Positions 2,465-12,770 of a DNA stretch of 64,000 nt are shown piece by piece; position 1 is the first letter of the stretch; every line of letters begins with the position of its first letter. The translations under genes and the position numbers were made by a program. The notes beneath the pieces were generated by a model. It was given only the letters and a program-made list of their open reading frames with translations, made no database searches and was not told the DNA's origin. The stretch covers positions 89,397-153,396 of the forward strand of contig JAZQGN010000015.1 in NCBI GenBank assembly GCA_045540095.1, read 5' to 3'. Source of the DNA: Akkermansia sp. Its GTDB lineage: Bacteria > Verrucomicrobiota > Verrucomicrobiia > Verrucomicrobiales > Akkermansiaceae.

Positions 2465-3664
2465 TTACTTCTCGCTCAGGGAGCCGATGCCGGGCAGAAT
2501 CTTGCCCTCAAGCAGCTCCAGAGAAGCACCACCACCAGTGGAGCAGAAGGAGAGCTTGTCAGCTACCTTGAACTTCTTGGCTGCGGTCACGGAGTCACCA
2601 CCACCAACGATGGAGATGCAATCGCTCTCAGCCAAGCACTCAGCAATAGCCTTGGTGCCCTTAGAGAAGGCGTCCAGCTCGAACACGCCCAGCGGGCCGT
2701 TCCAGAGTACAGTCTTAGCGGTCTTGATGATGGAGCACATCTCCTCGATGGCCTTGTCACCGATGTCGATGCCCATACCACCCTCGGGAACTTCGCCGCC
2801 CTCAGCCCAGGGAGCTGTGCAGAAGGTCTCAGCACCCTCTTCAAACTTGAAGGTGTAGCGGGTATCTGCGGGAAGGATGAACTTCACACCCTTAGCAGCG
2901 GCGTCAGCCAGAATCTGGTTGGCGAGATCGAGCTTATCAGCCTCAATCTTGGAAGCACCCACGTTCTTGCCCTGTGCGGCAAGGAAGGTGTTGGCCATAG
3001 CACCGCCGATGATGAAGGTCTGGCTCTTCTCCATGAGCTTGGAGAGCACCTGAATCTTATCGGAAACCTTAGCACCGCCCATGATAACAACGAAGGGCTG
3101 CTCGGGAGTCTCAAGCTTACCCTCAAGGTACTCGAGCTCGTGCTCGATGAGGAAGCCCATGGCGGACTTCTCAGCGAAGTGGGTCACGCCCTCAGTGGAG
3201 GCGTGGGCGCGGTGAGCAGAACCGAAAGCGTCGTTTACGTACAGGGTAGCGTTACCAAGAAGAGCCTTAGCGAACTCAGCGTCGTTCTTTTTCTCCTTCT
3301 TATCGAAGCGAACGTTGTCCAGCAGCATCACATCACCGTCCAGCAGAGCGGCGCGGGCAGCTGTGGCAGCCTCACCGATAGTCTCGGGAACGAAAGCAAC
3401 AGGCTTGCCCAGATGGCCGGAAAGGCACTCGGCAGCAGCCTTCAGGGAGAACTCAGCCTGATAGCCGGTACCCTCGGGGCGGCCAAGGTGAGAGCAGAGC
3501 ACCAGGCGGGCTCCCTTCTCCAGGAGGTACTTGATGGTGGGCAGAGCAGCCACGATGCGAGCATCGTTCGTGATAGCACCATCCTTCATGGGAACGTTGA
3601 AGTCCACGCGCATGAGGACTTCCTTACCGGCAACGTCGAGGTCACGTACAGTGAGTTTAGCCAT
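2465..3664 (-). CDS. pgk: phosphoglycerate kinase
   Basis: MRVDFNVP, SHLGRP, NDAFGSAHRAHAS, GGAKVSDK, WNGPLG, GGGDS, STGGGASLELLEG; strong codon bias. Confidence 0.99.
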   Translation of the reverse strand: MAKLTVRDLDVAGKEVLMRVDFNVPMKDGAITNDARIVAALPTIKYLLEKGARLVLCSHLGRPEGTGYQAEFSLKAAAECLSGHLGKPVAFVPETIGEAATAARAALLDGDVMLLDNVRFDKKEKKNDAEFAKALLGNATLYVNDAFGSAHRAHASTEGVTHFAEKSAMGFLIEHELEYLEGKLETPEQPFVVIMGGAKVSDKIQVLSKLMEKSQTFIIGGAMANTFLAAQGKNVGASKIEADKLDLANQILADAAAKGVKFILPADTRYTFKFEEGAETFCTAPWAEGGEVPEGGMGIDIGDKAIEEMCSIIKTAKTVLWNGPLGVFELDAFSKGTKAIAECLAESDCISIVGGGDSVTAAKKFKVADKLSFCSTGGGASLELLEGKILPGIGSLSEK

Positions 3665-3804
3665 ATTGTTGTTATTGGTTAGAAGTTTTTTCAGAGCTTA
3701 CTGCTCCGCGTGGTTATTTTACAACGTATTTCTTTGCAGCGCAAGGCTAAAAATTTGGAATGACGATTTTCTTTCACCTCGCTTGTATTTTTACGTGCTG
3801 TTTA

Positions 3805-4803
3805 TTATTGCGCTGACTTGTCGAGAAAACGCTTAACAAGCTTACGGTCCGGGCTGGCCATGGGAGTGGAAGCAAGCTCGGAGAGGGGAATGAGGCGTTC
3901 GTTGTTCATGGGCGCTGCAACGTCTGCCTTGTGTAGATGGCGGGTGACCTTGTAACGGGTCACGTTGTACTTCTGGTCACACATATGAGGGAGGGCGGAA
4001 ACTTCATTCTGTTCGCGGCGGGGGAGGCGGTACATCCCCTCGTGCCGTTTACCACCGGGTTGTTTTTCCATAAGGAGGCCATGTTCTGACAGGTACCAGA
4101 TATCCCAGTGTTCTATTAAGGTTACCTCTTTTTTAGGAAGTTTGATGGGAAGTTTTTCCGGCTGAGTGGCGGTGCAAAAATCGCGTATGGGGCAGAGAAG
4201 ACAAGTGGGCTGAGTGGTGGTACAAAGGGTTTGCCCGAGCTCCATGATGGCGGAATTATAGGCTCGCGGGTTGGTGGAGTGTACGAGTTGCGCTGCCAGT
4301 TCCCAGTGTTTTCTGCGGCCTGCCGGGCTGTCAATGGGGGTGGCGTCGTTGAATACTCGGGCGAATACTCTGCTCACGTTCGCGTCCACTAATGGTGCAG
4401 GGCGGTTGTATGCAAAGCTCAGCAGGGCTCCCGTAGTGTAATCTCCTATTCCGGGCAGTGCGCGGATGTTTTCCTCATTCTGCGGGAAAACTCCATCATG
4501 CTTCTCACAAATGGCTATGGCTGTAGCACGCAATGAGCGTACGCGGCGGTAATAACCGAGCCCCTCCCATGAGCGCAAGGCTGTTTCCTCATCCGATTGT
4601 GCGAGATGAGCCGGCGTGGGAAACTGATTCATCCAAGGCTCATATCTTGCCAGCACAGTCGGGATAGTCGTCTGTTGCAGCATGACTTCACTCACCAGAA
4701 TAGCCCACGGGTCTGTGGTGCGCCGCCATGGATAATCCCGTCCGTGAGCGAGAAACCAATCCACCAGAGCCTGAGAGAAATCCTTGTAATGCTCTACCTT
4801 CAT
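3805..4803 (-). CDS. mutY: A/G-specific adenine glycosylase
   Basis: ILVSEVMLQQT, WEGLGYYRR, LPGIGDYT, VDANVSRV, MELGQTLC..P.CLLCPIRDFC Fe-S motif. Confidence 0.93.
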   Translation of the reverse strand: MKVEHYKDFSQALVDWFLAHGRDYPWRRTTDPWAILVSEVMLQQTTIPTVLARYEPWMNQFPTPAHLAQSDEETALRSWEGLGYYRRVRSLRATAIAICEKHDGVFPQNEENIRALPGIGDYTTGALLSFAYNRPAPLVDANVSRVFARVFNDATPIDSPAGRRKHWELAAQLVHSTNPRAYNSAIMELGQTLCTTTQPTCLLCPIRDFCTATQPEKLPIKLPKKEVTLIEHWDIWYLSEHGLLMEKQPGGKRHEGMYRLPRREQNEVSALPHMCDQKYNVTRYKVTRHLHKADVAAPMNNERLIPLSELASTPMASPDRKLVKRFLDKSAQ

Positions 4804-4805
4804 GA

Positions 4806-6659
4806 TTAGGTGGGCGTGTGTGTCTCTGTGGTGTAGATCGAGATATCTGCATCACGAGTACCGAGAAGCTTCTGGGCACGCATGAGTGCCTTTCTGGTGG
4901 AGATGTTCGGGTTCTTCGGCTCGTAAATGAAGATATTGCTTTCCCCTTTACTGCGGTCACAGTCCGCCTGCAGCACATCCAGTACACCGCTTTTGCGCAG
5001 AACTCGGAACACTTGTCGCCCTGCGCCGGATACAATCAGGTGACGGCCTTTCTCTCGCGTGAACTTAATGAGTTCTTCCAGTGCGCAGACGGAAGTGGCA
5101 TCCAGATTACGGGCATTCCTCATGCGAAGAACGATGACGGCCAAGGATGGGTCTTCTGCAATACGGGATACCTGTTTACGGAAGAGATCAGCAGCACCGA
5201 AAAAGAGGTCACCTTCCACGTGGACGATAGAAATCTGTGGCAGGCGGCTGACCTGACTACTCACCTCCATGAGAGTGCCTTCCTTGTCAAAGGTATATTC
5301 CACAAGCTCCGGCTTGGCGGCTTTGCGCAGGAAGAGGGAAACGGAGATAACAACGCCCACGAAAATGGCGATGTGCAGAGGCAGTAGAAGTGAGGCAATG
5401 AATGTGATAAGTAGTACTACGGCATCACCTCTTGTAGAGCGGAAGCATATGCGCAGCAGCTTTCTGTCGTACAGTGATACAGCATTAGCCAGCACGAGTG
5501 CGGCTAGCACGCTGTGAGGTATGCAGGAAATGATGGGGAAACTGGCCAGTACAAAGGTAATACCCAGGCAAAGCAGACCACAAATAACGCCGGAGAAACG
5601 CGTGGCTGCGCCGGCCGTATAGTTCAGCATGGAGCGGGTAAGAGAAGCAGAGCAGGGAAGTGAGGTCGTGAAGGCAGAGCCGATGTTGGCCATACCCACA
5701 GCAAAGGTGTCCTGATTAAGATTGACCGGTTCACCGGTTTTGGCTGAAAGAGTCTTACTCATGACGGTCTGTTCAAGCGTGGAGAGGAACGCTATACCGA
5801 TAACAACGGGGAATAGTTCTGCCAGATGCCCGGAGATGGACCATACAGAGGGTGGTGTGCACGTGAGGTCACTCATGGTGAAGTCCTTTAGCATGCGGAC
5901 ATCCGCGAAGTAACCACCTGCCCATGGCTGGCTTAGTACCCAGTTCAGAACACTCATGGTCAACAGAATAACAGCAAAGGTGGGAAGGAACTTGAAATGC
6001 TTCTTGAGTGGTATGAACATCAAGAATGACAATGTGCCGAGAGCTATCGGCTGCCACTGTACTTTATCAAGATTATTGATAATGGCCGAGCTCATGGTGA
6101 AGAATGAGCTGCCGGCGTTCACGTCATTAATCCCCATCACGTATCTCAGCTGAGAGGCGATAATGAGAGTCGCAGCGCCTGTGATATAGCCCACCAGAAC
6201 GCTTCGGCTCACAAATTGGAGCATTTCTGTGGCCTTTACAAAGGCTCCAATGACGCATACCAAGCCCGCCAAGAATACGATTAGCGGTACGAAAATGGCT
6301 GGCTGGCTCTGTATGGCCGGAGAAGACGCAAGAAAGAAGCTGGCCAACATGAACGCGGTAGCATTACTGGGGCCACTGACAGTAAGGCTACAGCGCGTGA
6401 AAAGAGGTGCTATGAATGTGCCTACTGTGGCGGCCATGATGCCATAAATACTATCCAGCCCGGCCATAGCTGCGAAAGCCATACCTTGGGGCAATCCCAC
6501 CAGCGCAACATCCAGCGCAGCCTTGGTATCACGCCCCGCTTTGGAAAGGTTGTATCCGCTGATGGCATGCCGTGCGGGGAAAAAATCAATCATTCCCTGT
6601 GCTAGATAGATACACAGCCCTTTCCAAGCGAGTCTGATACGATGTGCCAAAGCTCCCAT
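4806..6659 (-). CDS. SulP-family anion transporter with C-terminal STAS domain
   Basis: LPQGMAFA, SGPS, multiple TM segments, NQDTFAVGMANI, STAS (VEGDLFFGAA, LDATS). Confidence 0.9.
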   Translation of the reverse strand: MGALAHRIRLAWKGLCIYLAQGMIDFFPARHAISGYNLSKAGRDTKAALDVALVGLPQGMAFAAMAGLDSIYGIMAATVGTFIAPLFTRCSLTVSGPSNATAFMLASFFLASSPAIQSQPAIFVPLIVFLAGLVCVIGAFVKATEMLQFVSRSVLVGYITGAATLIIASQLRYVMGINDVNAGSSFFTMSSAIINNLDKVQWQPIALGTLSFLMFIPLKKHFKFLPTFAVILLTMSVLNWVLSQPWAGGYFADVRMLKDFTMSDLTCTPPSVWSISGHLAELFPVVIGIAFLSTLEQTVMSKTLSAKTGEPVNLNQDTFAVGMANIGSAFTTSLPCSASLTRSMLNYTAGAATRFSGVICGLLCLGITFVLASFPIISCIPHSVLAALVLANAVSLYDRKLLRICFRSTRGDAVVLLITFIASLLLPLHIAIFVGVVISVSLFLRKAAKPELVEYTFDKEGTLMEVSSQVSRLPQISIVHVEGDLFFGAADLFRKQVSRIAEDPSLAVIVLRMRNARNLDATSVCALEELIKFTREKGRHLIVSGAGRQVFRVLRKSGVLDVLQADCDRSKGESNIFIYEPKNPNISTRKALMRAQKLLGTRDADISIYTTETHTPT

Positions 6660-6668
6660 ACAATTCTT

Positions 6669-6697
6669 ATTCTAGCACAGTGAATGTTATTCTGCAA
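6669..6697 (-). promoter_or_regulatory. sigma70-type promoter of SulP (and possibly mutY)
   Basis: TTGCAG-17 nt-TAGAAT-9 nt-ATG on the minus strand. Confidence 0.6.
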
Positions 6698-6703
6698 GTT
6701 GAA

Positions 6704-9313
6704 TTATTCTGCGCTTGTGGGCTGAGGTTCAGAAATGCTATTCAGGAGTTCCTGAGCTCGTTCCTGATTCTTATGGGCTGAGGCGTTGTCCTGCTCGCGG
6801 CGTACTATATCAGCCAGCAGTACAGTGGCTTGCTCCAGCCACATCCTAGCGTCCTGATTCTTGCCGAGAGTGATGGCATGAGACGCTGATTCTATCAGTG
6901 CATCGGTGTAGAGTGTTTTAAGGCGAGGATTTGCTGGGGAGTCCTGTAGTAACTGCCGAACAATGCTGCGGTATTTTTCGAGTTCCTCTGTAACGCGAGC
7001 ACTACGGTGTTCGTTTGATGCGCACGCAATGGCCCGACCGCGGTGTGCGCCGGCCATAATCATGGAATATTCCACATTACCGGGGGCTGTGGTAAGCAGG
7101 CGTTCCGTTTTCTGCATGACAGTGTTACAGTACGCTTCAGCTTGGTTGTAAAAATGGCGGCGTAGCATGATTTCAATCATGTATGACATGGCGCGGCACT
7201 GCTGAAACAGATAATCAGTGTTATTAGAATCTAGAGATTCCAGTTCCTCAGAAAGCTCGATACTTTGCTTAAAGGCAATCATGGCGTTTTCATCATGCTC
7301 ATGGCGCTGCGTATCATCAGTAGCCGCTGTGCTCATGAGCATATGCATCAGTCCACGTGCATATGTCTCGGCTGCGAGCCCAGCCTTGAATGACAAGCGG
7401 TGCGGATGAGTGGCTGCCAAGGAGGTGTATATATCATGTGCCTCATGAAGAAGAAGATTTGCGGCATTAAAATCTGCCGCATCCATCAGAACATTTGCCT
7501 GACTGATGAGTGCCTGAGCCAATCCCATGCGGGCGTTTTCATGCCGTGGGTATTTGGCAATGAGCTCGCGGAACATGCGAACCATGCTATCGATGGTTTT
7601 GCTGTTCATGGAAAGATTACCTGAGATGACAGCAAAGCGTGCGGAGTAATCCATGGCTTTCCCGAGTTCGCAGCGGTAATCCGGATTGTCTGGCGATTGA
7701 TCGCAGAGAGAACGCAATACATTAAGAGCTTGGCTCACGAGTACGCGCGCCTGCTCATTCATGTTTCTCCTTCTCCCTACCTCTGCTCGCAATAACCACG
7801 TGCGCGCCAGCTCAAAGCGGTAGCGCTGGTCATCAGGGTAGGTATCATGAAGAGATTGCAAAAGTTTTGTGGCATTTCGATATGCGTCCGTGGCTGCTGC
7901 CAGCTCGCCTTGCTGTACATGTACGGACCCCAGGTTTTTCCATGCAATTGCCAGTGCTCGCTGAAGAGTTTCATCCTGAGCGATGGGGAGGCTTTCCATG
8001 GAATTAAGATAGTTCTTAAGATTATTGCCCAGCTGTTGTTGTAAAGCAGTAGAGCCAGGGATGTCAGCAAGTTCATCATTGAAGTCATAGAGCATGCCTT
8101 CCGTGAACGTGAGGCTGTTGTTATAAATTTTCATGGCCTGCTCCTTTTCCTTAAGTGCCCATATGCTCAGAGCTGCCAGCGTAACGACGATGGCTACACT
8201 GGTGGTCATGAGGATACGCATACGGCGCATCAGACCGGATGGCGGAGGTATGATGCCGCTCTCCATACTGTCACGCCAAGCGGCGGCACTCTTCCAGCGC
8301 TCAGATGGTTCTAAGGAAAGAGCTCGATCTATTGCCTGCAAGAAATGGCGGCTGTAGAACTCTTCCAAGTAGGGACGCCCTGCAAGCGGTTTATACGGGT
8401 CCGGGGACGCGAGTACGCGCATGTCTGCTTTCGGGGGGAGCAGGCGGGTGACAAGATAATAGAAGGTGGCGCCTAGCGCATATATATCCGTCTGAGGGCC
8501 TATGGCTGCGCTCATTTGGGCATCCGTCCGGGCGGTGCTTTGTTCAGGAGCGCAGAAATCCGGTGTATAGATGTTGGTATATATCTTACCTTCTTGGTGC
8601 TGACGGGCGGAGCCGAAGTCCAGTAGAATGGGGCGGCCTTCAGTATTCACAAGAATGTTTTCCGGTTTTATGTCTCGGTGTACGATTCCGTGCTGCTCCA
8701 TGTATTCCAGCGTATAGAGCAGAGAGCGCAGCAGCTGCTTATTTTTGCGGGCTTCCATGGCTTGGCGAGTCTTGTCCAGCGTAGGCTGCTCAGGAAGTTC
8801 CAGTGATTTACCTTCCACATACGGCATCACATAATAAGCCGTGCCGTTTTCTTCAAAGCCGGAAATAATGGGCACAATGCCCGGATGTTCCAGCCCCATG
8901 AGCACCACGACTTCTTCCATGAACTCTGCCATGGTGGCTTTGAAGCGCTCATCCGTCTCAGGGGATATGCTGCTCACGAAGGTGCTTCCGGGCACACGCA
9001 TAGCCAGATTCGCCGGAATATGCTCCTTGATTACCACGATGGAGCCTTGAGTGCAGTGGCGTGCGCGGTAGGTAATGCCAAATCCACCCTGACCGAGTTT
9101 GGATATAATGATATACTCGCCTACTTGCGTTTCCGGCGGTAGGGGGGCTCGCTGGTTGTTTGTATCCGGCTGAGCTGGCTCGTGCTCGGGAGCGGATTCA
9201 ACAATCTCCTCCGGTAAAGTGAGCTGGGGGGGAACCGGTTTGGGTACACCGGGGGGGACAATTGGAGGAGGTGGCGCGCCATGAGGCGCTGAGTTGAGAG
9301 GTGGCTGTTTCAT
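6704..9313 (-). CDS. Hanks-type Ser/Thr protein kinase with a TM helix and TPR-like C-terminal region
   Basis: Pro-rich N-terminus; GQGGFGITY, VVIKE, HRDIKPEN, DFG, APEQ, DIYALG; hydrophobic ILMTTSVAIVVTLAALSIWAL; helical repeats afterwards. Confidence 0.92.
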   Translation of the reverse strand: MKQPPLNSAPHGAPPPPIVPPGVPKPVPPQLTLPEEIVESAPEHEPAQPDTNNQRAPLPPETQVGEYIIISKLGQGGFGITYRARHCTQGSIVVIKEHIPANLAMRVPGSTFVSSISPETDERFKATMAEFMEEVVVLMGLEHPGIVPIISGFEENGTAYYVMPYVEGKSLELPEQPTLDKTRQAMEARKNKQLLRSLLYTLEYMEQHGIVHRDIKPENILVNTEGRPILLDFGSARQHQEGKIYTNIYTPDFCAPEQSTARTDAQMSAAIGPQTDIYALGATFYYLVTRLLPPKADMRVLASPDPYKPLAGRPYLEEFYSRHFLQAIDRALSLEPSERWKSAAAWRDSMESGIIPPPSGLMRRMRILMTTSVAIVVTLAALSIWALKEKEQAMKIYNNSLTFTEGMLYDFNDELADIPGSTALQQQLGNNLKNYLNSMESLPIAQDETLQRALAIAWKNLGSVHVQQGELAAATDAYRNATKLLQSLHDTYPDDQRYRFELARTWLLRAEVGRRRNMNEQARVLVSQALNVLRSLCDQSPDNPDYRCELGKAMDYSARFAVISGNLSMNSKTIDSMVRMFRELIAKYPRHENARMGLAQALISQANVLMDAADFNAANLLLHEAHDIYTSLAATHPHRLSFKAGLAAETYARGLMHMLMSTAATDDTQRHEHDENAMIAFKQSIELSEELESLDSNNTDYLFQQCRAMSYMIEIMLRRHFYNQAEAYCNTVMQKTERLLTTAPGNVEYSMIMAGAHRGRAIACASNEHRSARVTEELEKYRSIVRQLLQDSPANPRLKTLYTDALIESASHAITLGKNQDARMWLEQATVLLADIVRREQDNASAHKNQERAQELLNSISEPQPTSAE

Positions 9314-11443
9314 TCAGAGAGATTTTCGCAGTTTAAGTGTGCTGCTTTCCTGGGAGGTGAGGAACTTGATTCTATCCAGCGGAAGATGCGGCAGAACGAT
9401 GAGAGGATTAAATTGGGGTTGATTGTAGGTCAGAGTAAGTCTAGCCTCCTGCTCATTGCAGCGTAACTGGATCTCGACTTGGGTATCCGGTGTGAAAACG
9501 TTAAGTATAGCGATAAGAGCCGCTTGCAATTCTGTAATACTATCGGGAGCCGCAAAAACGCTTTCTAATTTTTCCTGTAGTGTTTTTACAAATGCCGCAG
9601 GCTCTCCTGCTGCAAAGGTCGTGTGATAATTGATGGCCCACTTTCCCCGGTATTCAAGAGACAGCATGGTGATATCGCTGTTCTGTTCCATATTGCCGGT
9701 AAATTGCTGGAGCGAAGCACGCACCCCGCGTATTGTATCAGCCACGGTGCTTGTTTCCCGTTTAAGAGCCTCTTGAAGACGAGCCGCACCAAAGGGGGTA
9801 TAATCTGAATCTACGGCGTTTATTACGCCCTGTGTATAGAGGAAGAGTCTGTCTCCAGGCTGCAGTGTGAAGCGACACTCATTATAAGCAGCGCCTGAAT
9901 ACGCGCCTAATACAGCACCGGAATGCATGGAGAGCATCTCATAGTTAGCCCCAACATGGCAAAGCAGTGCTTGGGGGGTACCGGCATTCACATAGCGAAG
10001 GTCTCCTGTGGTGATATTGAGACGCCCATAAAAGAGAGAAAGCTTCATATCAGCTCCCTCACGGCAAAGGATTTTATTAGTACCGGTAACAAGCTCTCGC
10101 GGAGTTGCTCCAGTATTTGCAAGTTCGCGGATGATGGAGATGGCGCGCATCATGAACAACGCCGCAGGGATACCGGAGTCAGACACATCACCCAGCAGGA
10201 AACAGATGTGTTTATCATCCGGCATGAAAAAGTCATAAAAATCACCACCTACCATCTGAGCTTGGAGGCATGAGGCGTATATATCAAAGTCCGTTCTGTC
10301 CGGGAAGGCGGGAAACTTACTAGGAAGCACAGTATGTTGGATGGCCGCGGCGAGATGCAGCTCTTTCATGAGATGCTCGCGCTTCTGGTCCGCATATGAC
10401 TGAAGAGAATCCACCATTGCATTTATGCCAGTGGAAAGTCTCGTAAACTCCGGAGTGCTTTTTTCCTCAATTCTTTCTTCCGTATATCCTTCAGTTATAC
10501 GGCGAAGTCCGTTATTGATGCGCCGCAAGCCACGCAGCACGTAGACGCGTAGCAGTAACCACACAACCACGAACATGAGCAGGAACAAGCCCATATTGCT
10601 CAACAGCATATAGCGCAGAGATTTGAAGCTCACCTTGCTGATTTCCTGCCACGGCATAAAGGAGACAAGCCTGATGCCATTCTCCTCAATGGCATATGTA
10701 GCATAGCTCACGCCTCCCGAGCTTACCTCGCCTACAGAGTTCAGCGGCAGAGAGAGAAGGGTGGATGTGGGGAGATTCAGAGCTCCGCGGTTCAGTAGCT
10801 GGCCATCACGGAAGGCGATGACATGCTCACTCGCTCCCCGCATGATCTGCTCAATCAGAGAGTCATACCCGATGGCTTCACGTACAGACTGCTCATGCTG
10901 AACTGCAAAGCCCAGCTGGAGTACGCCGGGCGCATCCGGGCGTGTCACTCCGGCGTATTGCAGAAGTTTGCCGTCCAATGCACTGTTTCTGGGGCGCTGC
11001 ACTAATTCGTGCCCCGGCTCATTGATACAGGCAAGAAAGTAGCGGCTCTGTTCATGGTCACCCAATCTAAAGCCAACGACATTTTTCGGGACACCAGCAA
11101 TGATGGTGCCCTCTTCGTTACTGATGCAAAGCTGAGTGGCGCCAAGCTCATTGCATAAGCCCTGCATGAGTTCATAGTTCTCAATGATAGCCGGATTTTG
11201 GCTAATGATTCTGGCCGCAGCTCGAGTTCGTTCAAGCGTGCTGCGGTCATTAATCTGCTCCACATGGCGCATGTTATTCTGTGTGAAGCGAATCAGCAAC
11301 ATAAGGTCATGGAGACGATTGCTCATCAGAGCCTTCGCTCGAGATTCAGCTTGCTGCTGGAACTGGAGGAATGACAGCAGGCCAGCCACGGCAAAAGCCG
11401 AACATATCAGCACCAGCAGCCATGTGAGAAACTTCCTTTGCAT
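9314..11443 (-). CDS. membrane sensor with extracytoplasmic Cache-like domain, HAMP and a degenerate PP2C/SpoIIE phosphatase domain
   Basis: two TM segments, HAMP-like (LRRINNGLRRITEG..PEFTRLSTGINAM), LAAAIQ, VGGDFYDF, GDVSDSG, LFLYTQG, NSDITML; start moved to MQRKFL at 11443. Confidence 0.88.
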   Translation of the reverse strand: MQRKFLTWLLVLICSAFAVAGLLSFLQFQQQAESRAKALMSNRLHDLMLLIRFTQNNMRHVEQINDRSTLERTRAAARIISQNPAIIENYELMQGLCNELGATQLCISNEEGTIIAGVPKNVVGFRLGDHEQSRYFLACINEPGHELVQRPRNSALDGKLLQYAGVTRPDAPGVLQLGFAVQHEQSVREAIGYDSLIEQIMRGASEHVIAFRDGQLLNRGALNLPTSTLLSLPLNSVGEVSSGGVSYATYAIEENGIRLVSFMPWQEISKVSFKSLRYMLLSNMGLFLLMFVVVWLLLRVYVLRGLRRINNGLRRITEGYTEERIEEKSTPEFTRLSTGINAMVDSLQSYADQKREHLMKELHLAAAIQHTVLPSKFPAFPDRTDFDIYASCLQAQMVGGDFYDFFMPDDKHICFLLGDVSDSGIPAALFMMRAISIIRELANTGATPRELVTGTNKILCREGADMKLSLFYGRLNITTGDLRYVNAGTPQALLCHVGANYEMLSMHSGAVLGAYSGAAYNECRFTLQPGDRLFLYTQGVINAVDSDYTPFGAARLQEALKRETSTVADTIRGVRASLQQFTGNMEQNSDITMLSLEYRGKWAINYHTTFAAGEPAAFVKTLQEKLESVFAAPDSITELQAALIAILNVFTPDTQVEIQLRCNEQEARLTLTYNQPQFNPLIVLPHLPLDRIKFLTSQESSTLKLRKSL

Positions 11444-11600
11444 GTATTCCCGCTTTTTCTCCGAGTATATTACCATGATTTGAGGAGAAATGCAAGCATA
11501 GAATTACACACCACTAAACTCTTGCCATTTAAAAAAACGAAGTCGGAAATCTTTTAAACTAACCAAAGGTGATAATCATCCATAGAGGTCAGGGGATGAA

Positions 11601-11634
11601 AAGGGGGAAGAACGGTAATAAGTTCTTCCCCCTT
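11601..11634 (-). terminator. intrinsic terminator after GH16
   Basis: AAGGGGGAAGAAC-8 nt-GTTCTTCCCCCTT 13-bp stem followed by T residues on the minus strand. Confidence 0.8.
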
Positions 11635-11659
11635 GTGGATGCGATGAAATATAAAGGCA

Positions 11660-12592
11660 TTATGGCCTGCGGCGACGTGCTGCCAGGCCAGCCAAAGCTA
11701 ACAGACTCAATGTAGCTGTAGTAGGCTCTGGTACATTGGTGGGGGTGGAGTAGACACGCACATAGTCAATCGTCATGGCAACTCCGTCACCAATGTCACC
11801 GATATTACCTACCCAACCTCCACCTAACTGCATGTCCAGCAAGAGGTAATAGGGGTTGTTGTCCTTGTTGAAAGGCCAATTGGGATTGCCCTCCTGTGCT
11901 TGGAGGGTGAGGGTGCTCCTACCATCCATATAGAATGTAACGGCCTCCGGAGTCCACTCTACACCATACGTATGGAATGCCGCCTTATCTTCCTGAGTCA
12001 TGAAGTATGCGGTGCTGGTGCCATTTGCGCCTACGGTTGAATTAGAAACGGCATTACCCCATTGATTATTATAATGCACTGTCTGGTAAATGATGCCGTC
12101 CCAGTTCAAATGCTCCATAATATCGATTTCTCCCGTCTGGGGCCAAGGACCAGCGGTAGGCATCATCCAAATCGCAGGCCAAGCGCCCTGTGCGCAGTCG
12201 AACTTGGCACGAACCTCCACATATCCGTATTGGAAAGTGAAGGTCTTGTCTGTAAAGATACCGCCGCAGGCATAGGTATCATTAGCGCCTGTTGGGTCAT
12301 TTTGGCTGGTATAGTCGCCATACTTACCCCACAAGGAAACAGTGCCATCCCCGTTTACTGTCACTAAGGATTCATCTCGGGACTGATAGCGAGACCAATC
12401 CACGGTCCAGTTCACATACTCAAACCTATTCCATTTAGTGGTATCCAAGCGCGTGCCGGAAAAATCATCATTGAACACCATCGTCCACTCCGGGTGAGTA
12501 GATTGCCAGCCTGTATAATCATCAGCCTGTGCAGTAGATACAGTGGCAGGCGAAGCTGCCGCTAACAGTAAGCCGTATAAATGCTTTTTCAT
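11660..12592 (-). CDS. GH16 glycoside hydrolase with signal peptide and PEP-CTERM sorting signal
   Basis: MKKHLYGLLLAAA signal; F.DDFSG, YGYVEVRAK, GAWPAIWMMP, GEIDIMEH catalytic motif, FHTYGVEW, IDYVRVY; C-terminal VPEP-TM-RRRR. Confidence 0.93.
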   Translation of the reverse strand: MKKHLYGLLLAAASPATVSTAQADDYTGWQSTHPEWTMVFNDDFSGTRLDTTKWNRFEYVNWTVDWSRYQSRDESLVTVNGDGTVSLWGKYGDYTSQNDPTGANDTYACGGIFTDKTFTFQYGYVEVRAKFDCAQGAWPAIWMMPTAGPWPQTGEIDIMEHLNWDGIIYQTVHYNNQWGNAVSNSTVGANGTSTAYFMTQEDKAAFHTYGVEWTPEAVTFYMDGRSTLTLQAQEGNPNWPFNKDNNPYYLLLDMQLGGGWVGNIGDIGDGVAMTIDYVRVYSTPTNVPEPTTATLSLLALAGLAARRRRP

Positions 12593-12770
12593 AAGTGATG
12601 CGCTTGTATGTGGTATGGAGAGAGGGAGAAAAGACTCCAAAAAGAGTTCTTGTAATCTCATCTCAGATTATGCCATAATACCCGTACGGATGATTCCGTC
12701 AAGGTAAAAGAGAGCAAGCTGACGAGCTTTTGCGAAGAGTTAAGGGTCAATAGAAAGATAAATTGATGAT

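What the first reader, a model, noticed from the sequence alone, without database searches (positions are those of the whole stretch)
6704..11443. Candidate two-receptor signalling system: PP2C pseudophosphatase sensor abutting an intact membrane Ser/Thr kinase
The TM-Cache-TM-HAMP-SpoIIE protein keeps GGDFYD but departs from RsbU/SpoIIE PP2C consensus at three sites. DVSG(H/K)G is DVSDSG (10172-10189). The metal-binding TDG is TQG (CAG at 9830-9832, two base changes from an Asp codon, so not a single-base error). The terminal DD is SD (9674-9679). Loss of the motif-8 Asp should cripple Mn/Mg catalysis. Its TGA (9314-9316) directly abuts the ATG of a kinase with all core motifs intact plus a TM helix and extracytoplasmic TPR-like repeats. 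Inference: the dead phosphatase is a ligand-controlled allosteric partner or scaffold for the kinase rather than its eraser. I do not know of such a module being described in this lineage.
Basis: partly seen in the sequence, partly recalled or inferred. Interest (0 to 1): 0.72.

Follow-up and report, generated by a model that had tools for sequence, protein, structure and literature searches.

The report
Dead phosphatase receptor paired with kinase
In a group of gut Akkermansia-type bacteria, a membrane sensor whose phosphatase domain has lost its catalytic metal site always sits directly in front of an intact membrane protein kinase, so it probably works as a non-enzymatic partner of that kinase.

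Summary
The upstream gene encodes TM, a dCache-like periplasmic domain, TM, HAMP, a coiled coil and a SpoIIE-type PP2C domain.

Mapped onto the solved SiaA-PP2C structure, two of the three ligands of metal M1 are gone (Q549, S600). The M2 ligands (D412, D430) remain. This is the pattern of the known PPM pseudophosphatases TAB1 and PHLPP2.

The loss is not strain decay:
- 0 of 106 clade members keep all four Asp, whereas 14 of 14 outgroup proteins and 136 of 150 library representatives do.
- The domain is under strong purifying selection (dN/dS about 0.04).

The Hanks kinase is immediately downstream in 12 of 12 clade loci with unrelated flanks, mostly with overlapping or abutting stop and start codons. 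Its catalytic residues are invariant in 121 of 121 orthologues. Intact relatives instead carry an intact RsbW-like domain and/or STAS neighbours, and only one of 81 has even a weak kinase-like neighbour.

Best reading: a partner-switching sensor, dead in both enzymatic domains, rewired as a ligand-controlled non-catalytic partner of a receptor kinase. Physical interaction and direction of control are untested. This is a new variant of a known kind (E. coli RssB, Chlamydia CT589, TAB1).

The parts
9314..11443 (-). Gene for the sensor pseudophosphatase. 709 aa from M12; the open frame extends to an ATG at 11476, giving 720 aa. The 720-aa numbering is used throughout.
   Evidence: ORF list. Homologues are called at 709-715 aa. 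Metatranscriptome contigs from three runs end at 11439-11452.
11360..11428 (-). TM helix 1 (aa 17-39), with basic residues on the N-terminal (cytoplasmic) side.
   Evidence: Read from the sequence. The AF2 model has a continuous helix over aa 2-93.
10619..11359 (-). Periplasmic double-PDC / dCache-like sensor domain (aa 40-286). It carries the conserved motif QYAGVxRxDxPGxxQLG (aa 173-189).
   Evidence: AF2 secondary structure. Foldseek hits to the DctB sensor 3BY9 (E 3e-7) and to McpB models. R179 and G184 are invariant even in the outgroups. No Pfam Cache hit.
10544..10618 (-). TM helix 2 (aa 287-311).
   Evidence: Read from the sequence. The AF2 model has a helix over aa 276-328.
10328..10543 (-). 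HAMP domain (aa 312-359) and helical linker (aa 360-383) leading into the PP2C domain.
   Evidence: Pfam HAMP at aa 312-359. AF2 helix over aa 342-383. dN/dS 0.015.
9647..10327 (-). SpoIIE-type PP2C-like domain (aa 384-610). The M2 ligands are kept (D412, D430). The M1/M3 ligands are replaced (Q549 at 9830-9832; S600 at 9677-9679). Motif 2 reads DVSDSG (10172-10189).
   Evidence: Pfam. Alignment to SiaA 6K4E combined with that paper's residue list. Clade statistics. Foldseek TM 0.8 to SiaA and RssB PP2C domains.
9317..9646 (-). Relic of an RsbW-type HATPase_c_2 domain (aa 611-720). It lacks the N-box, the G1 box and about 20 residues covering the G2 box / ATP lid.
   Evidence: hhalign against the fused HATPase_c_2 domains of relatives: probability 97.4%, E 1.2e-11, all 112 columns aligned. 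The top Foldseek hit is 3KE6, the RsbU plus RsbW domains of Rv1364c, over 350 columns. Clade-specific conserved residues (E638, P644, C673, E675, N690-P691) are listed.
9311..9316 (-). Gene junction TGAATG: the stop of the pseudophosphatase abuts the start of the kinase.
   Evidence: Read. Eight of nine junctions read show overlap or abutment: ATGA overlap in L001, L082, L083 and L086; TGATG in L089; TAAATG in L084; a 1-nt overlap in L090.
6704..9313 (-). Gene for the Hanks-type Ser/Thr receptor kinase (869 aa).
   Evidence: ORF list; Pfam Pkinase 120 bits.
8249..9133 (-). Cytoplasmic kinase domain (aa 61-355). Motifs: GQGGFG, K96, E134, HRD (212-214), N219, DFG (232-234), APE (255-257).
   Evidence: All catalytic positions are invariant in 121/121 orthologues. 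AF2 pLDDT is 81-96 across the domain, mostly above 88. The best structural match is PpkA 5HNV, TM 0.82, 31% identity.
8156..8218 (-). Single TM helix of the kinase (aa 366-386), with RRMR on the cytoplasmic side.
   Evidence: Sequence (printout). AF2 long helix over aa 359-415.
6734..8128 (-). Extracytoplasmic all-helical TPR-like solenoid (aa 396-860; about 20 helices).
   Evidence: Pfam TPR_14, TPR_11, TPR_19 and TPR_Slam. In the AF2 model pLDDT is 69-83 in the first 50 residues and mostly above 95 from aa 450.

Best explanation
This is a conserved two-gene, two-receptor module of Akkermansia-type bacteria.

Gene 1 descends from a membrane sensor of the partner-switching kind: dCache-like domain, HAMP, coiled-coil linker, RsbU/SpoIIE-type PP2C, and a fused RsbW-type kinase domain. 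In this clade both enzymatic domains are dead. The PP2C domain has lost the M1 (and M3) metal ligands and keeps only the M2 site. The RsbW-like domain has lost its ATP-binding boxes and lid. The usual STAS substrate gene is absent from the locus.

Gene 2, translationally coupled to gene 1, is a fully intact Hanks-type Ser/Thr kinase with one TM helix and a periplasmic TPR solenoid.

Most likely mechanism (inferred): the pseudophosphatase still passes a periplasmic ligand signal through HAMP and the linker into the conserved alpha1/alpha2 switch region of its dimeric PP2C-like domain. It uses that conformational change to bind and gate, or scaffold, the cytoplasmic domain of the co-expressed kinase. 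It does not dephosphorylate anything.

Shown here: the loss of catalytic residues, purifying selection, strict linkage, intact kinase motifs, and transcription in vivo.

Inferred: physical contact, ligand control, and the direction of regulation (activation or inhibition).
For: 1. Active-site mapping. The alignment to SiaA chain 6K4E, with the residue list from PMC7647112, gives SiaA D457/D474/D600/D653 = window D412/D430/Q549/S600. So M1 loses two of three ligands and M2 is kept. TAB1 and PHLPP2, which are experimentally inactive, are likewise M2-only (PMC12002173).

2. Clade-wide pattern. 0/106 clade members keep all four Asp, against 14/14 outgroup proteins. Position 549 is E/Q/D/H/N/A/S/R/G. 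Position 600 takes 14 different residues, including Arg and Lys. Other positions invariant in the outgroup (K434, H500, P503, E553) are also relaxed. Among 150 representatives at 50% identity, the 9 full-length clade representatives are all degenerate, and 136 of the remainder are DDDD.

3. Not a decaying gene. dN/dS is 0.04 for the PP2C-like domain and 0.07 for the relic domain, against 0.02 for the kinase domain. The PP2C-like domain is among the best conserved parts of the protein (mean identity 0.55). The switch-helix residues G435, P437, A439, L440, M442 and M443 are invariant or nearly so.

4. Linkage. The kinase is immediately downstream in 12/12 clade loci, with PP2C identity to the window running from 93% down to 33% and with unrelated flanking genes. 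Starting instead from the most divergent kinase listed, the same partner is found upstream. Of 81 non-clade loci, none has a strong kinase match nearby (one weak 40-bit hit, L026).

5. Ancestry. Intact relatives carry a fused HATPase_c_2 domain and/or adjacent STAS genes. The window's C-terminus is a relic of that domain.

6. Kinase integrity. All catalytic residues are invariant in 121/121 orthologues.

7. Expression. Contigs from three gut metatranscriptomes cover both genes, and one spans the junction.

8. Plausibility of signal transfer. Coiled-coil linkers from HAMP and other sensor domains drive the switch helices of PPM dimers. The pseudophosphatase domain of E. coli RssB uses the same region for regulated protein binding (PMC12143880).
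Against: There is no direct evidence that the two proteins bind each other. A complex prediction could not be run.

A minority of clade members keep acidic residues at both 549 and 600. One example is P0082, with D412/D430/E549/E600. Residual activity in some lineages cannot be excluded.

The retained M2 site and the invariant D415 and D601 show that the cleft still matters. That could mean phospho-ligand binding rather than allostery.

Conserved adjacency proves a shared function, not a mechanism. dS between the two compared strains is near saturation (0.5-1.6), so the dN/dS values are approximate.
Confidence: 0.5

Rival explanations
1. The PP2C-like protein is mainly a substrate or docking platform of the kinase. 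The kinase phosphorylates it. The output then goes through the conserved RsbW-like relic, which binds a sigma factor, a STAS protein or another partner encoded elsewhere.
For: The relic domain has its own clade-specific conserved residues (E638, P644, C673, E675, Y684, N690-P691, K718, L720) and dN/dS 0.07, so it does something. RsbW-type domains bind sigma factors and STAS proteins in intact relatives. Adjacency fits a kinase-substrate pair equally well.
Against: No STAS or sigma gene lies within 4-8 kb of the pair in any of the 12 clade loci. The window has no stand-alone anti-sigma-antagonist STAS gene; its only STAS domain is the C-terminus of the SulP transporter at 4806-6659. This reading leaves the sensor domain, HAMP and linker, which are the most constrained parts (dN/dS 0.015-0.06), without a role unless ligand binding gates accessibility.
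Confidence: 0.2
2. The dead PP2C domain is a phospho-Thr/Ser reader or substrate trap. With its remaining M2 metal it binds the phosphorylated kinase, or phosphorylated kinase substrates, and shields them from real phosphatases.
For: The M2 ligands D412 (105/106) and D430 (92/106), plus D415, G435 and D601 (all 106/106), stay conserved although M1 is lost. TAB1 also keeps a metal at M2 (PMC12002173). The kinase activation loop carries an invariant T250.
Against: Fourteen clade members lack even D430 (A, S, E or G), so metal-assisted phosphate binding cannot be universal. No phospho-binding has been shown for any SpoIIE-type pseudophosphatase that I could find.
Confidence: 0.15
3. It is still an active phosphatase, the kinase's eraser, using a non-canonical set of ligands.
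For: The fold is complete (Pfam 127 bits, profile positions 1-191 of 192). Gln and Ser can in principle coordinate metals. Public annotation calls the protein 'SpoIIE family protein phosphatase' or 'PP2C family protein-serine/threonine phosphatase'. PP2C genes next to Hanks kinase genes are normally the cognate erasers.
Against: Positions 549 and 600 are hypervariable within the clade and include Arg, Lys, Ala and Gly. No alternative ligand is conserved there, and 0/106 members have the full set. PPM catalysis needs two to three metals, and the M2-only proteins TAB1 and PHLPP2 are inactive.
Confidence: 0.05
4. The two genes are only neighbours, riding in one operon without a shared pathway.
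For: Nothing specific. In the closest relatives the operon also carries unrelated SulP and MutY-like genes.
Against: Adjacency holds in 12/12 loci while every flank changes. Stop and start overlap or abut in 8 of 9 junctions read. The pairing is exclusive to the degenerate clade.
Confidence: 0.05

Closest known systems
Chlamydia trachomatis CT589 (paralogue of RsbU / CT588)
   Same: It is from the PVC superphylum. [quoted passage not shown]
   Different: CT589 is numbered next to the active RsbU (CT588), not next to a Hanks kinase (adjacency inferred from the locus numbers only). No RsbW-like relic is reported. Its function is unknown. Orthology with the Akkermansia clade was not tested here.
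E. coli RssB (response regulator with a PPM pseudophosphatase domain, adaptor for sigma-S)
   Same: It has a SpoIIE/RsbU-type PP2C fold without catalysis. Its alpha1/alpha2 switch region and its linker to an N-terminal sensor domain are used for regulated protein binding (PMC12143880). P. aeruginosa RssB is among the best structural matches of the window protein.
   Different: It is cytoplasmic, with a receiver-domain input. Its partner is a sigma factor and ClpXP, not a kinase. It has no membrane sensor and no RsbW relic.
TAB1 (and PHLPP2), eukaryotic PPM pseudophosphatases
   Same: They have the PPM fold with only the M2 site left and the M1/M3 ligands lost (PMC12002173). From established knowledge, TAB1 binds and activates protein kinases (TAK1, p38alpha), which is the mode of action proposed here.
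   Different: They are eukaryotic and soluble, and are no closer to the window protein than the shared PPM fold. This is an analogy of mechanism only.
Canonical partner-switching sensors (HAMP-PP2C-HATPase_c_2 fusions with a STAS neighbour; M. tuberculosis Rv1364c)
   Same: They share the ancestry and the domain order. Rv1364c (RsbU plus RsbW domains, 3KE6) is the top hit by both sequence and structure. P0119 / L088 shows the intact version of the same architecture with a STAS gene upstream.
   Different: Those proteins have all four Asp, intact ATP-binding boxes and a STAS substrate. The window protein has none of these, and has a Hanks kinase partner instead.
Hanks kinase / PP2C eraser pairs (PknB-PstP, PrkC-PrpC, PpkA-PppA)
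   Same: A membrane Hanks kinase is encoded next to a PPM-fold protein. PpkA is the best structural match of the kinase domain.
   Different: In those pairs the phosphatase is an active, small PP2C of the PstP/PrpC type. Here the partner is a large SpoIIE-type sensor with a destroyed M1 site.

Membership tests
PPM / SpoIIE-type PP2C domain (PF07228) | Sequence and fold homology over the whole domain | tested here: met
   Pfam 127.6 bits, profile positions 1-191 of 192. Foldseek TM 0.8 to the SiaA and RssB PP2C domains.
PPM / SpoIIE-type PP2C domain (PF07228), as an active phosphatase | Four conserved Asp forming the binuclear M1/M2 site (SiaA D457, D474, D600, D653) | tested here: not met
   The window has D412, D430, Q549 and S600. 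0/106 clade members have all four.
PPM / SpoIIE-type PP2C domain (PF07228), as an active phosphatase | Metal-dependent phosphatase activity | not testable with these tools
   Needs purified protein, with pNPP or phosphoprotein assays with and without Mn2+.
Partner-switching module (RsbU-RsbV-RsbW type) | STAS-domain substrate encoded with the phosphatase | tested here: not met
   No stand-alone STAS gene in 12 clade loci or in the window. Such genes are present next to many intact relatives.
Partner-switching module (RsbU-RsbV-RsbW type) | RsbW-type kinase with N-box, G1 and G2 ATP-binding motifs | tested here: not met
   The domain is homologous (hhalign 97.4%, E 1e-11), but the N-box and G1 residues are replaced and about 20 residues around G2 and the lid are deleted. 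No Pfam HATPase_c_2 hit.
Hanks-type Ser/Thr protein kinase | Gly-loop, VAIK Lys, alphaC Glu, HRD, catalytic Asn, DFG, APE | tested here: met
   All are present and invariant in 121/121 orthologues. Pkinase 120 bits. PpkA and PknB are the structural matches.
Hanks kinase with cognate PP2C eraser (PknB/PstP-like pair) | Adjacent PPM protein is catalytically competent | tested here: not met
   The M1 ligands are lost throughout the clade.
dCache (double PDC) extracytoplasmic sensor | Two stacked PAS-like alpha/beta modules on a long N-terminal helix between two TM helices | tested here: inconclusive
   The AF2 secondary structure and Foldseek hits to DctB 3BY9 (E 3e-7) and to McpB models fit. No Pfam Cache family matched at E <= 0.1.
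Pseudophosphatase acting as kinase regulator (TAB1-like mode) | Direct binding to, and modulation of, a protein kinase | not testable with these tools
   Only genetic linkage is shown.

The most novel reading that the evidence does not exclude
A partner-switching sensor that has lost both of its enzymatic activities (pseudo-PP2C plus pseudo-RsbW) has been rewired in Akkermansiaceae into the ligand-binding, allosteric subunit of a heteromeric receptor with a Hanks-type TPR kinase. It would be a bacterial counterpart of TAB1-TAK1, or of pseudoenzyme/enzyme receptor pairs. Two different periplasmic domains (dCache-like and TPR) would feed one kinase output.
Probability: 0.4. Interest if true: 0.72.

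Novelty: new variant of a known kind. Interest (0 to 1): 0.6.

Why it matters
Bacterial Ser/Thr kinase signalling is usually drawn as kinase plus eraser phosphatase. Here the adjacent 'phosphatase' is dead across a whole clade yet strongly conserved. Databases name it 'SpoIIE family protein phosphatase', which is probably wrong as a functional label.

If the dead sensor gates the kinase, it would be a clear bacterial case of a pseudophosphatase regulating a protein kinase. It would also be an example of a partner-switching module being recycled into a Hanks-kinase pathway.

More than 100 sequence-diverse orthologue pairs exist. That makes the system well suited to co-evolution analysis and to a simple revertant experiment.

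The organisms are gut Akkermansia-type bacteria, mostly from ruminants. I found no evidence that A. muciniphila itself carries the pair.

Tried and rejected
- **Genome-collection scan.** The conserved peptides GGDFYD and GIPAALFMM are generic to SpoIIE-type proteins.
- **Complex model.** I tried a model of the cytoplasmic parts through a read-through of the in-frame TGA. No paired alignment can be submitted with these tools.
- **Promoter and terminator scan of 3600-12000.** Counts were at the shuffle expectation, so it says nothing about operon limits.
- **Rfam on the whole window.** No hit.
- **Literature searches** for an Akkermansia kinase/SpoIIE study, and for a bacterial pseudophosphatase with a Hanks kinase. 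Nothing specific turned up.
- **BLASTP of the C-terminal 115 aa against P0119 and P0120.** Not significant. Homology appeared only with profile-profile comparison.
- **SulP-STAS transporter downstream as part of the module.** Rejected, because it follows the kinase only in the closest relatives.
- **Strain-specific decay or sequencing error.** Rejected.
Full report
**Observation**

Two minus-strand ORFs fill the region. One runs 9314-11476 (720 aa). The other runs 6704-9313 (869 aa).
- GAT GTG TCT GAC TCC GGT (DVSDSG) at 10189-10172.
- CAG (Gln549) at 9832-9830.
- AGC GAT (Ser600-Asp601) at 9679-9674.
- TGA at 9316-9314, directly followed by the kinase ATG at 9313-9311.

Homologues are called at 709-715 aa. 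Metatranscriptome contigs from three runs end at 11439-11452.

Pfam finds a full-length SpoIIE domain (127.6 bits, aa 420-609) and HAMP (aa 312-359) in the first protein. In the second it finds Pkinase (120 bits) plus several TPR families.

**Anatomy of the first protein**

An AlphaFold2 model built on 82 homologues has mean pLDDT 84. It shows the following order:
- a TM helix;
- a roughly 245-aa periplasmic alpha/beta domain;
- a second TM helix running into HAMP;
- a long helical linker (aa 342-383);
- the PP2C fold (aa 384-610);
- a further alpha/beta domain (aa 611-720).

In Foldseek against the PDB the best match is 3KE6, the RsbU plus RsbW domains of M. tuberculosis Rv1364c, over 350 columns. 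Next come the PP2C domains of P. aeruginosa RssB and SiaA (TM about 0.8). The periplasmic part matches the DctB double-PDC sensor (3BY9, E 3e-7) and McpB models. No Pfam Cache model matched, so 'Cache' rests on fold only.

A profile of that domain from 105 clade members (101 after filtering) aligns over all 112 columns with a profile of 61 HATPase_c_2 / RsbW-like domains, most of them fused to the PP2C in relatives (hhalign probability 97.4%, E 1.2e-11). Within that alignment the N-box Glu and Asn and the G1 'D.G' box are replaced, and about 20 residues around the G2 box and lid are missing. It is a relic of an RsbW-type kinase.

**Which residues are lost**

The phmmer alignment to SiaA-PP2C (6K4E chain; 23-residue tag plus residues 386-663) places query Q549 on chain position 238 and S600 on chain position 291. 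These correspond to SiaA D600 and D653. The structure paper lists D457, D474, G477, D600, G601 and D653 as the conserved active-site residues. M1 and M2 are each bound by three residues, C475 contributes a carbonyl to M2, and D600 also holds M3 (PMC7647112).

| SiaA residue | Window residue |
|---|---|
| D457 | D412 |
| D474 | D430 |
| C475 (carbonyl) | V431 |
| G477 | D433 |
| D600 | Q549 |
| G601 | G550 |
| D653 | S600 |

I assign D600 and D653 to M1, with D474 as the bridging ligand. That assignment rests on general PPM knowledge (PP2Calpha D60/D239/D282) and on the paper's statement that C475 belongs to M2. The paper passage does not give the split residue by residue.

So M1 has lost two of three ligands, M3 has lost its ligand, and the M2 site is intact. 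That is exactly the state of TAB1 and PHLPP2, which have no activity (PMC12002173).

The Gly-to-Asp change in DVSDSG is not diagnostic. Relatives with all four Asp also have DVSDKG.

**Clade-wide, not strain decay**

The search of 5.8 billion proteins returned about 105 cluster representatives of 702-723 aa, at 93% down to 33% identity. Where named, they come from MAGs labelled Akkermansia sp. or Akkermansiaceae. Beyond them lie proteins of about 615 aa or about 740 aa from Planctomycetia, Lentisphaerae and others.

Within the clade:
- No member (0/106) keeps all four Asp. In the outgroup 14/14 do.
- Position 549 is E29, Q24, D14, H10, N7, A7, S6, R5, G4.
- Position 600 takes 14 different residues, including Arg and Lys.
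- D430 is lost in 14 members.

Other positions invariant in the outgroup (K434, H500, P503, E553) are relaxed too. In an exhaustive HMMER search of 1.84 billion representatives, the 9 full-length clade representatives are all degenerate. Of the remaining listed proteins, 136 are D-D-D-D.

The gene is nevertheless under strong purifying selection. Comparing the window with L089 gives these dN/dS values (dS is 0.5-1.6, so they are approximate):

| Region | dN/dS |
|---|---|
| Whole pseudophosphatase gene | 0.05 |
| HAMP plus linker | 0.015 |
| PP2C-like domain | 0.04 |
| RsbW-like relic | 0.07 |
| Kinase domain | 0.02 |

The PP2C-like domain is among the best conserved parts across the clade (mean identity 0.55). 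The switch-helix motif GIPAALFMM, D415 and D601 are invariant or nearly so.

A few members have Glu or Asp at both 549 and 600, for example P0082. Residual activity in some lineages cannot be excluded.

**Linkage to the kinase**

Exact look-ups of nine pseudophosphatase homologues (93, 69, 51, 48, 45, 43, 42, 40 and 33% identity), one genome-scan locus, and a reverse look-up from the most divergent listed kinase all show the same picture. A Pkinase-TM-TPR gene lies immediately downstream of the SpoIIE-like gene, while the flanking genes differ from locus to locus. With the window that is 12 of 12.

I read nine junctions directly (window, L001, L081-L084, L086, L089; L090). Eight abut or overlap (TGAATG, ATGA, TGATG, TAAATG), and L081 has a 14-nt gap. 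The kinase start in L085 is uncertain.

Of 81 other SpoIIE-type loci, none has a strong kinase match nearby (one weak 40-bit hit, L026). About 30 of them carry a fused HATPase_c_2 domain, and many have a roughly 100-aa STAS gene beside them. P0119 / L088 is the clean example: STAS, then SpoIIE plus HATPase_c_2.

No stand-alone STAS gene, second PP2C or second kinase is found in the 64-kb window. The SulP-STAS transporter and the MutY-like gene downstream of the kinase travel with the pair only in the closest relatives.

**The kinase**

Every catalytic position is invariant in 121/121 orthologues: GxGGFG, K96, E134, HRD, K216, N219, DFG, APE, D276 and R339.

The AF2 model (pLDDT 88) shows four parts:
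- a disordered Pro-rich N-terminus (aa 1-55);
- the kinase domain;
- one long TM helix;
- a solenoid of about 20 helices, with pLDDT mostly above 95 from aa 450.

The best structural match of the kinase domain is PpkA (5HNV, TM 0.82, 31% identity), followed by PknB, PknA and PknI.

**Expression**

Contigs from three gut metatranscriptome runs cover both genes at low depth. One contig (9290-9523) crosses the junction. This is consistent with co-transcription, though DNA carry-over cannot be ruled out. The DNA runs that hold the sequence are sheep and other gut metagenomes.

**Interpretation**

The ancestor was a membrane partner-switching sensor: dCache-like domain, HAMP, linker, PP2C and RsbW, acting on a STAS protein. 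In this clade three things happened. The PP2C lost M1 and M3. The RsbW domain lost its ATP site. The STAS neighbour is gone, and a Hanks receptor kinase is fixed downstream.

Coiled-coil linkers from HAMP and other sensor domains are known to drive the alpha1/alpha2 switch of PPM dimers. The pseudophosphatase domain of E. coli RssB uses that same region for regulated protein binding (PMC12143880).

The sensor, HAMP, linker and switch helices are the most constrained parts here. I therefore think the signal path into the PP2C-like domain is retained, and that its output is now binding or gating of the kinase. I put this at about 0.5.

The rivals, in order of likelihood:
- the pseudophosphatase is a kinase substrate or platform, with output through the relic domain (0.2);
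- it is a phospho-reader or substrate trap using the M2 site (0.15);
- it retains activity (0.05);
- the adjacency is coincidental (0.05).

**Comparison and novelty**

Dead PPM domains that work by binding are known in bacteria (E. coli RssB) and in eukaryotes (TAB1, PHLPP2). A membrane-spanning RsbU paralogue without metal ligands is recorded in Chlamydia (CT589; PMC4552016).

What I did not find described is this combination: a dCache-HAMP sensor dead in both enzymatic domains, strictly coupled to a Hanks kinase across a whole clade.

That makes it a new variant of a known kind. The pseudophosphatase call and the linkage are robust. The mechanism remains an inference.

Noticed in passing
window 11439-11476: The open frame starts at an ATG at 11476 (720 aa). 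Homologues start at the equivalent of M12 (11443). Metatranscriptome contigs from three runs end at 11439, 11452 and 11452. This suggests a transcript start only about 10 nt upstream of the M12 ATG, i.e. a very short leader.
   Followed up: partly
window 3805-6659 (minus strand): A SulP-family transporter with a C-terminal STAS domain (4806-6659) and a MutY-like HhH-GPD glycosylase (3805-4803) follow the kinase with gaps of 44 and 2 nt. They accompany the pair only in the closest relatives (L081, L089), so they are not part of the conserved module.
   Followed up: yes
window 9134-9313 (kinase aa 1-60): The N-terminus of the kinase is Pro-rich and disordered (pLDDT < 50). It evolves much faster (dN/dS 0.31) than the kinase domain (0.02). 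It could be a docking or phosphorylation region.
   Followed up: partly
window 10910-10960 (aa 173-189 of the sensor): The periplasmic motif QYAGVxRxDxPGxxQLG, with invariant R179 and G184, is conserved even in outgroup sensors at about 30% identity from other phyla. This suggests a shared ligand pocket. The ligand is unknown.
   Followed up: no
window 11660-12661 (minus strand): The upstream neighbour is a GH16 glycoside hydrolase whose C-terminus looks like a PEP-CTERM sorting tail (…PEPTTATLSLLALAGLAARRRRP). The GH16 family comes from the Pfam annotation of the orthologous gene in L089. The tail is my reading of the sequence and was not checked with any tool.
   Followed up: no
P0261 (606 aa, from the representative search): Another SpoIIE-type protein outside the Akkermansia clade has a degenerate active site ('DNIRQAG' at the seven positions checked). 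It may be an independent pseudophosphatase. Its gene context could not be looked up.
   Followed up: no
L026 10429-12564: Among 81 non-clade SpoIIE loci, this is the only one with a weak kinase-like hit (39.9 bits). The hit lies downstream of a 957-aa SpoIIE-HATPase_c_2 protein in an Atopobiaceae MAG. It was not examined further.
   Followed up: no
window 1-64000: No Rfam family reaches its gathering score anywhere in the window.
   Followed up: yes
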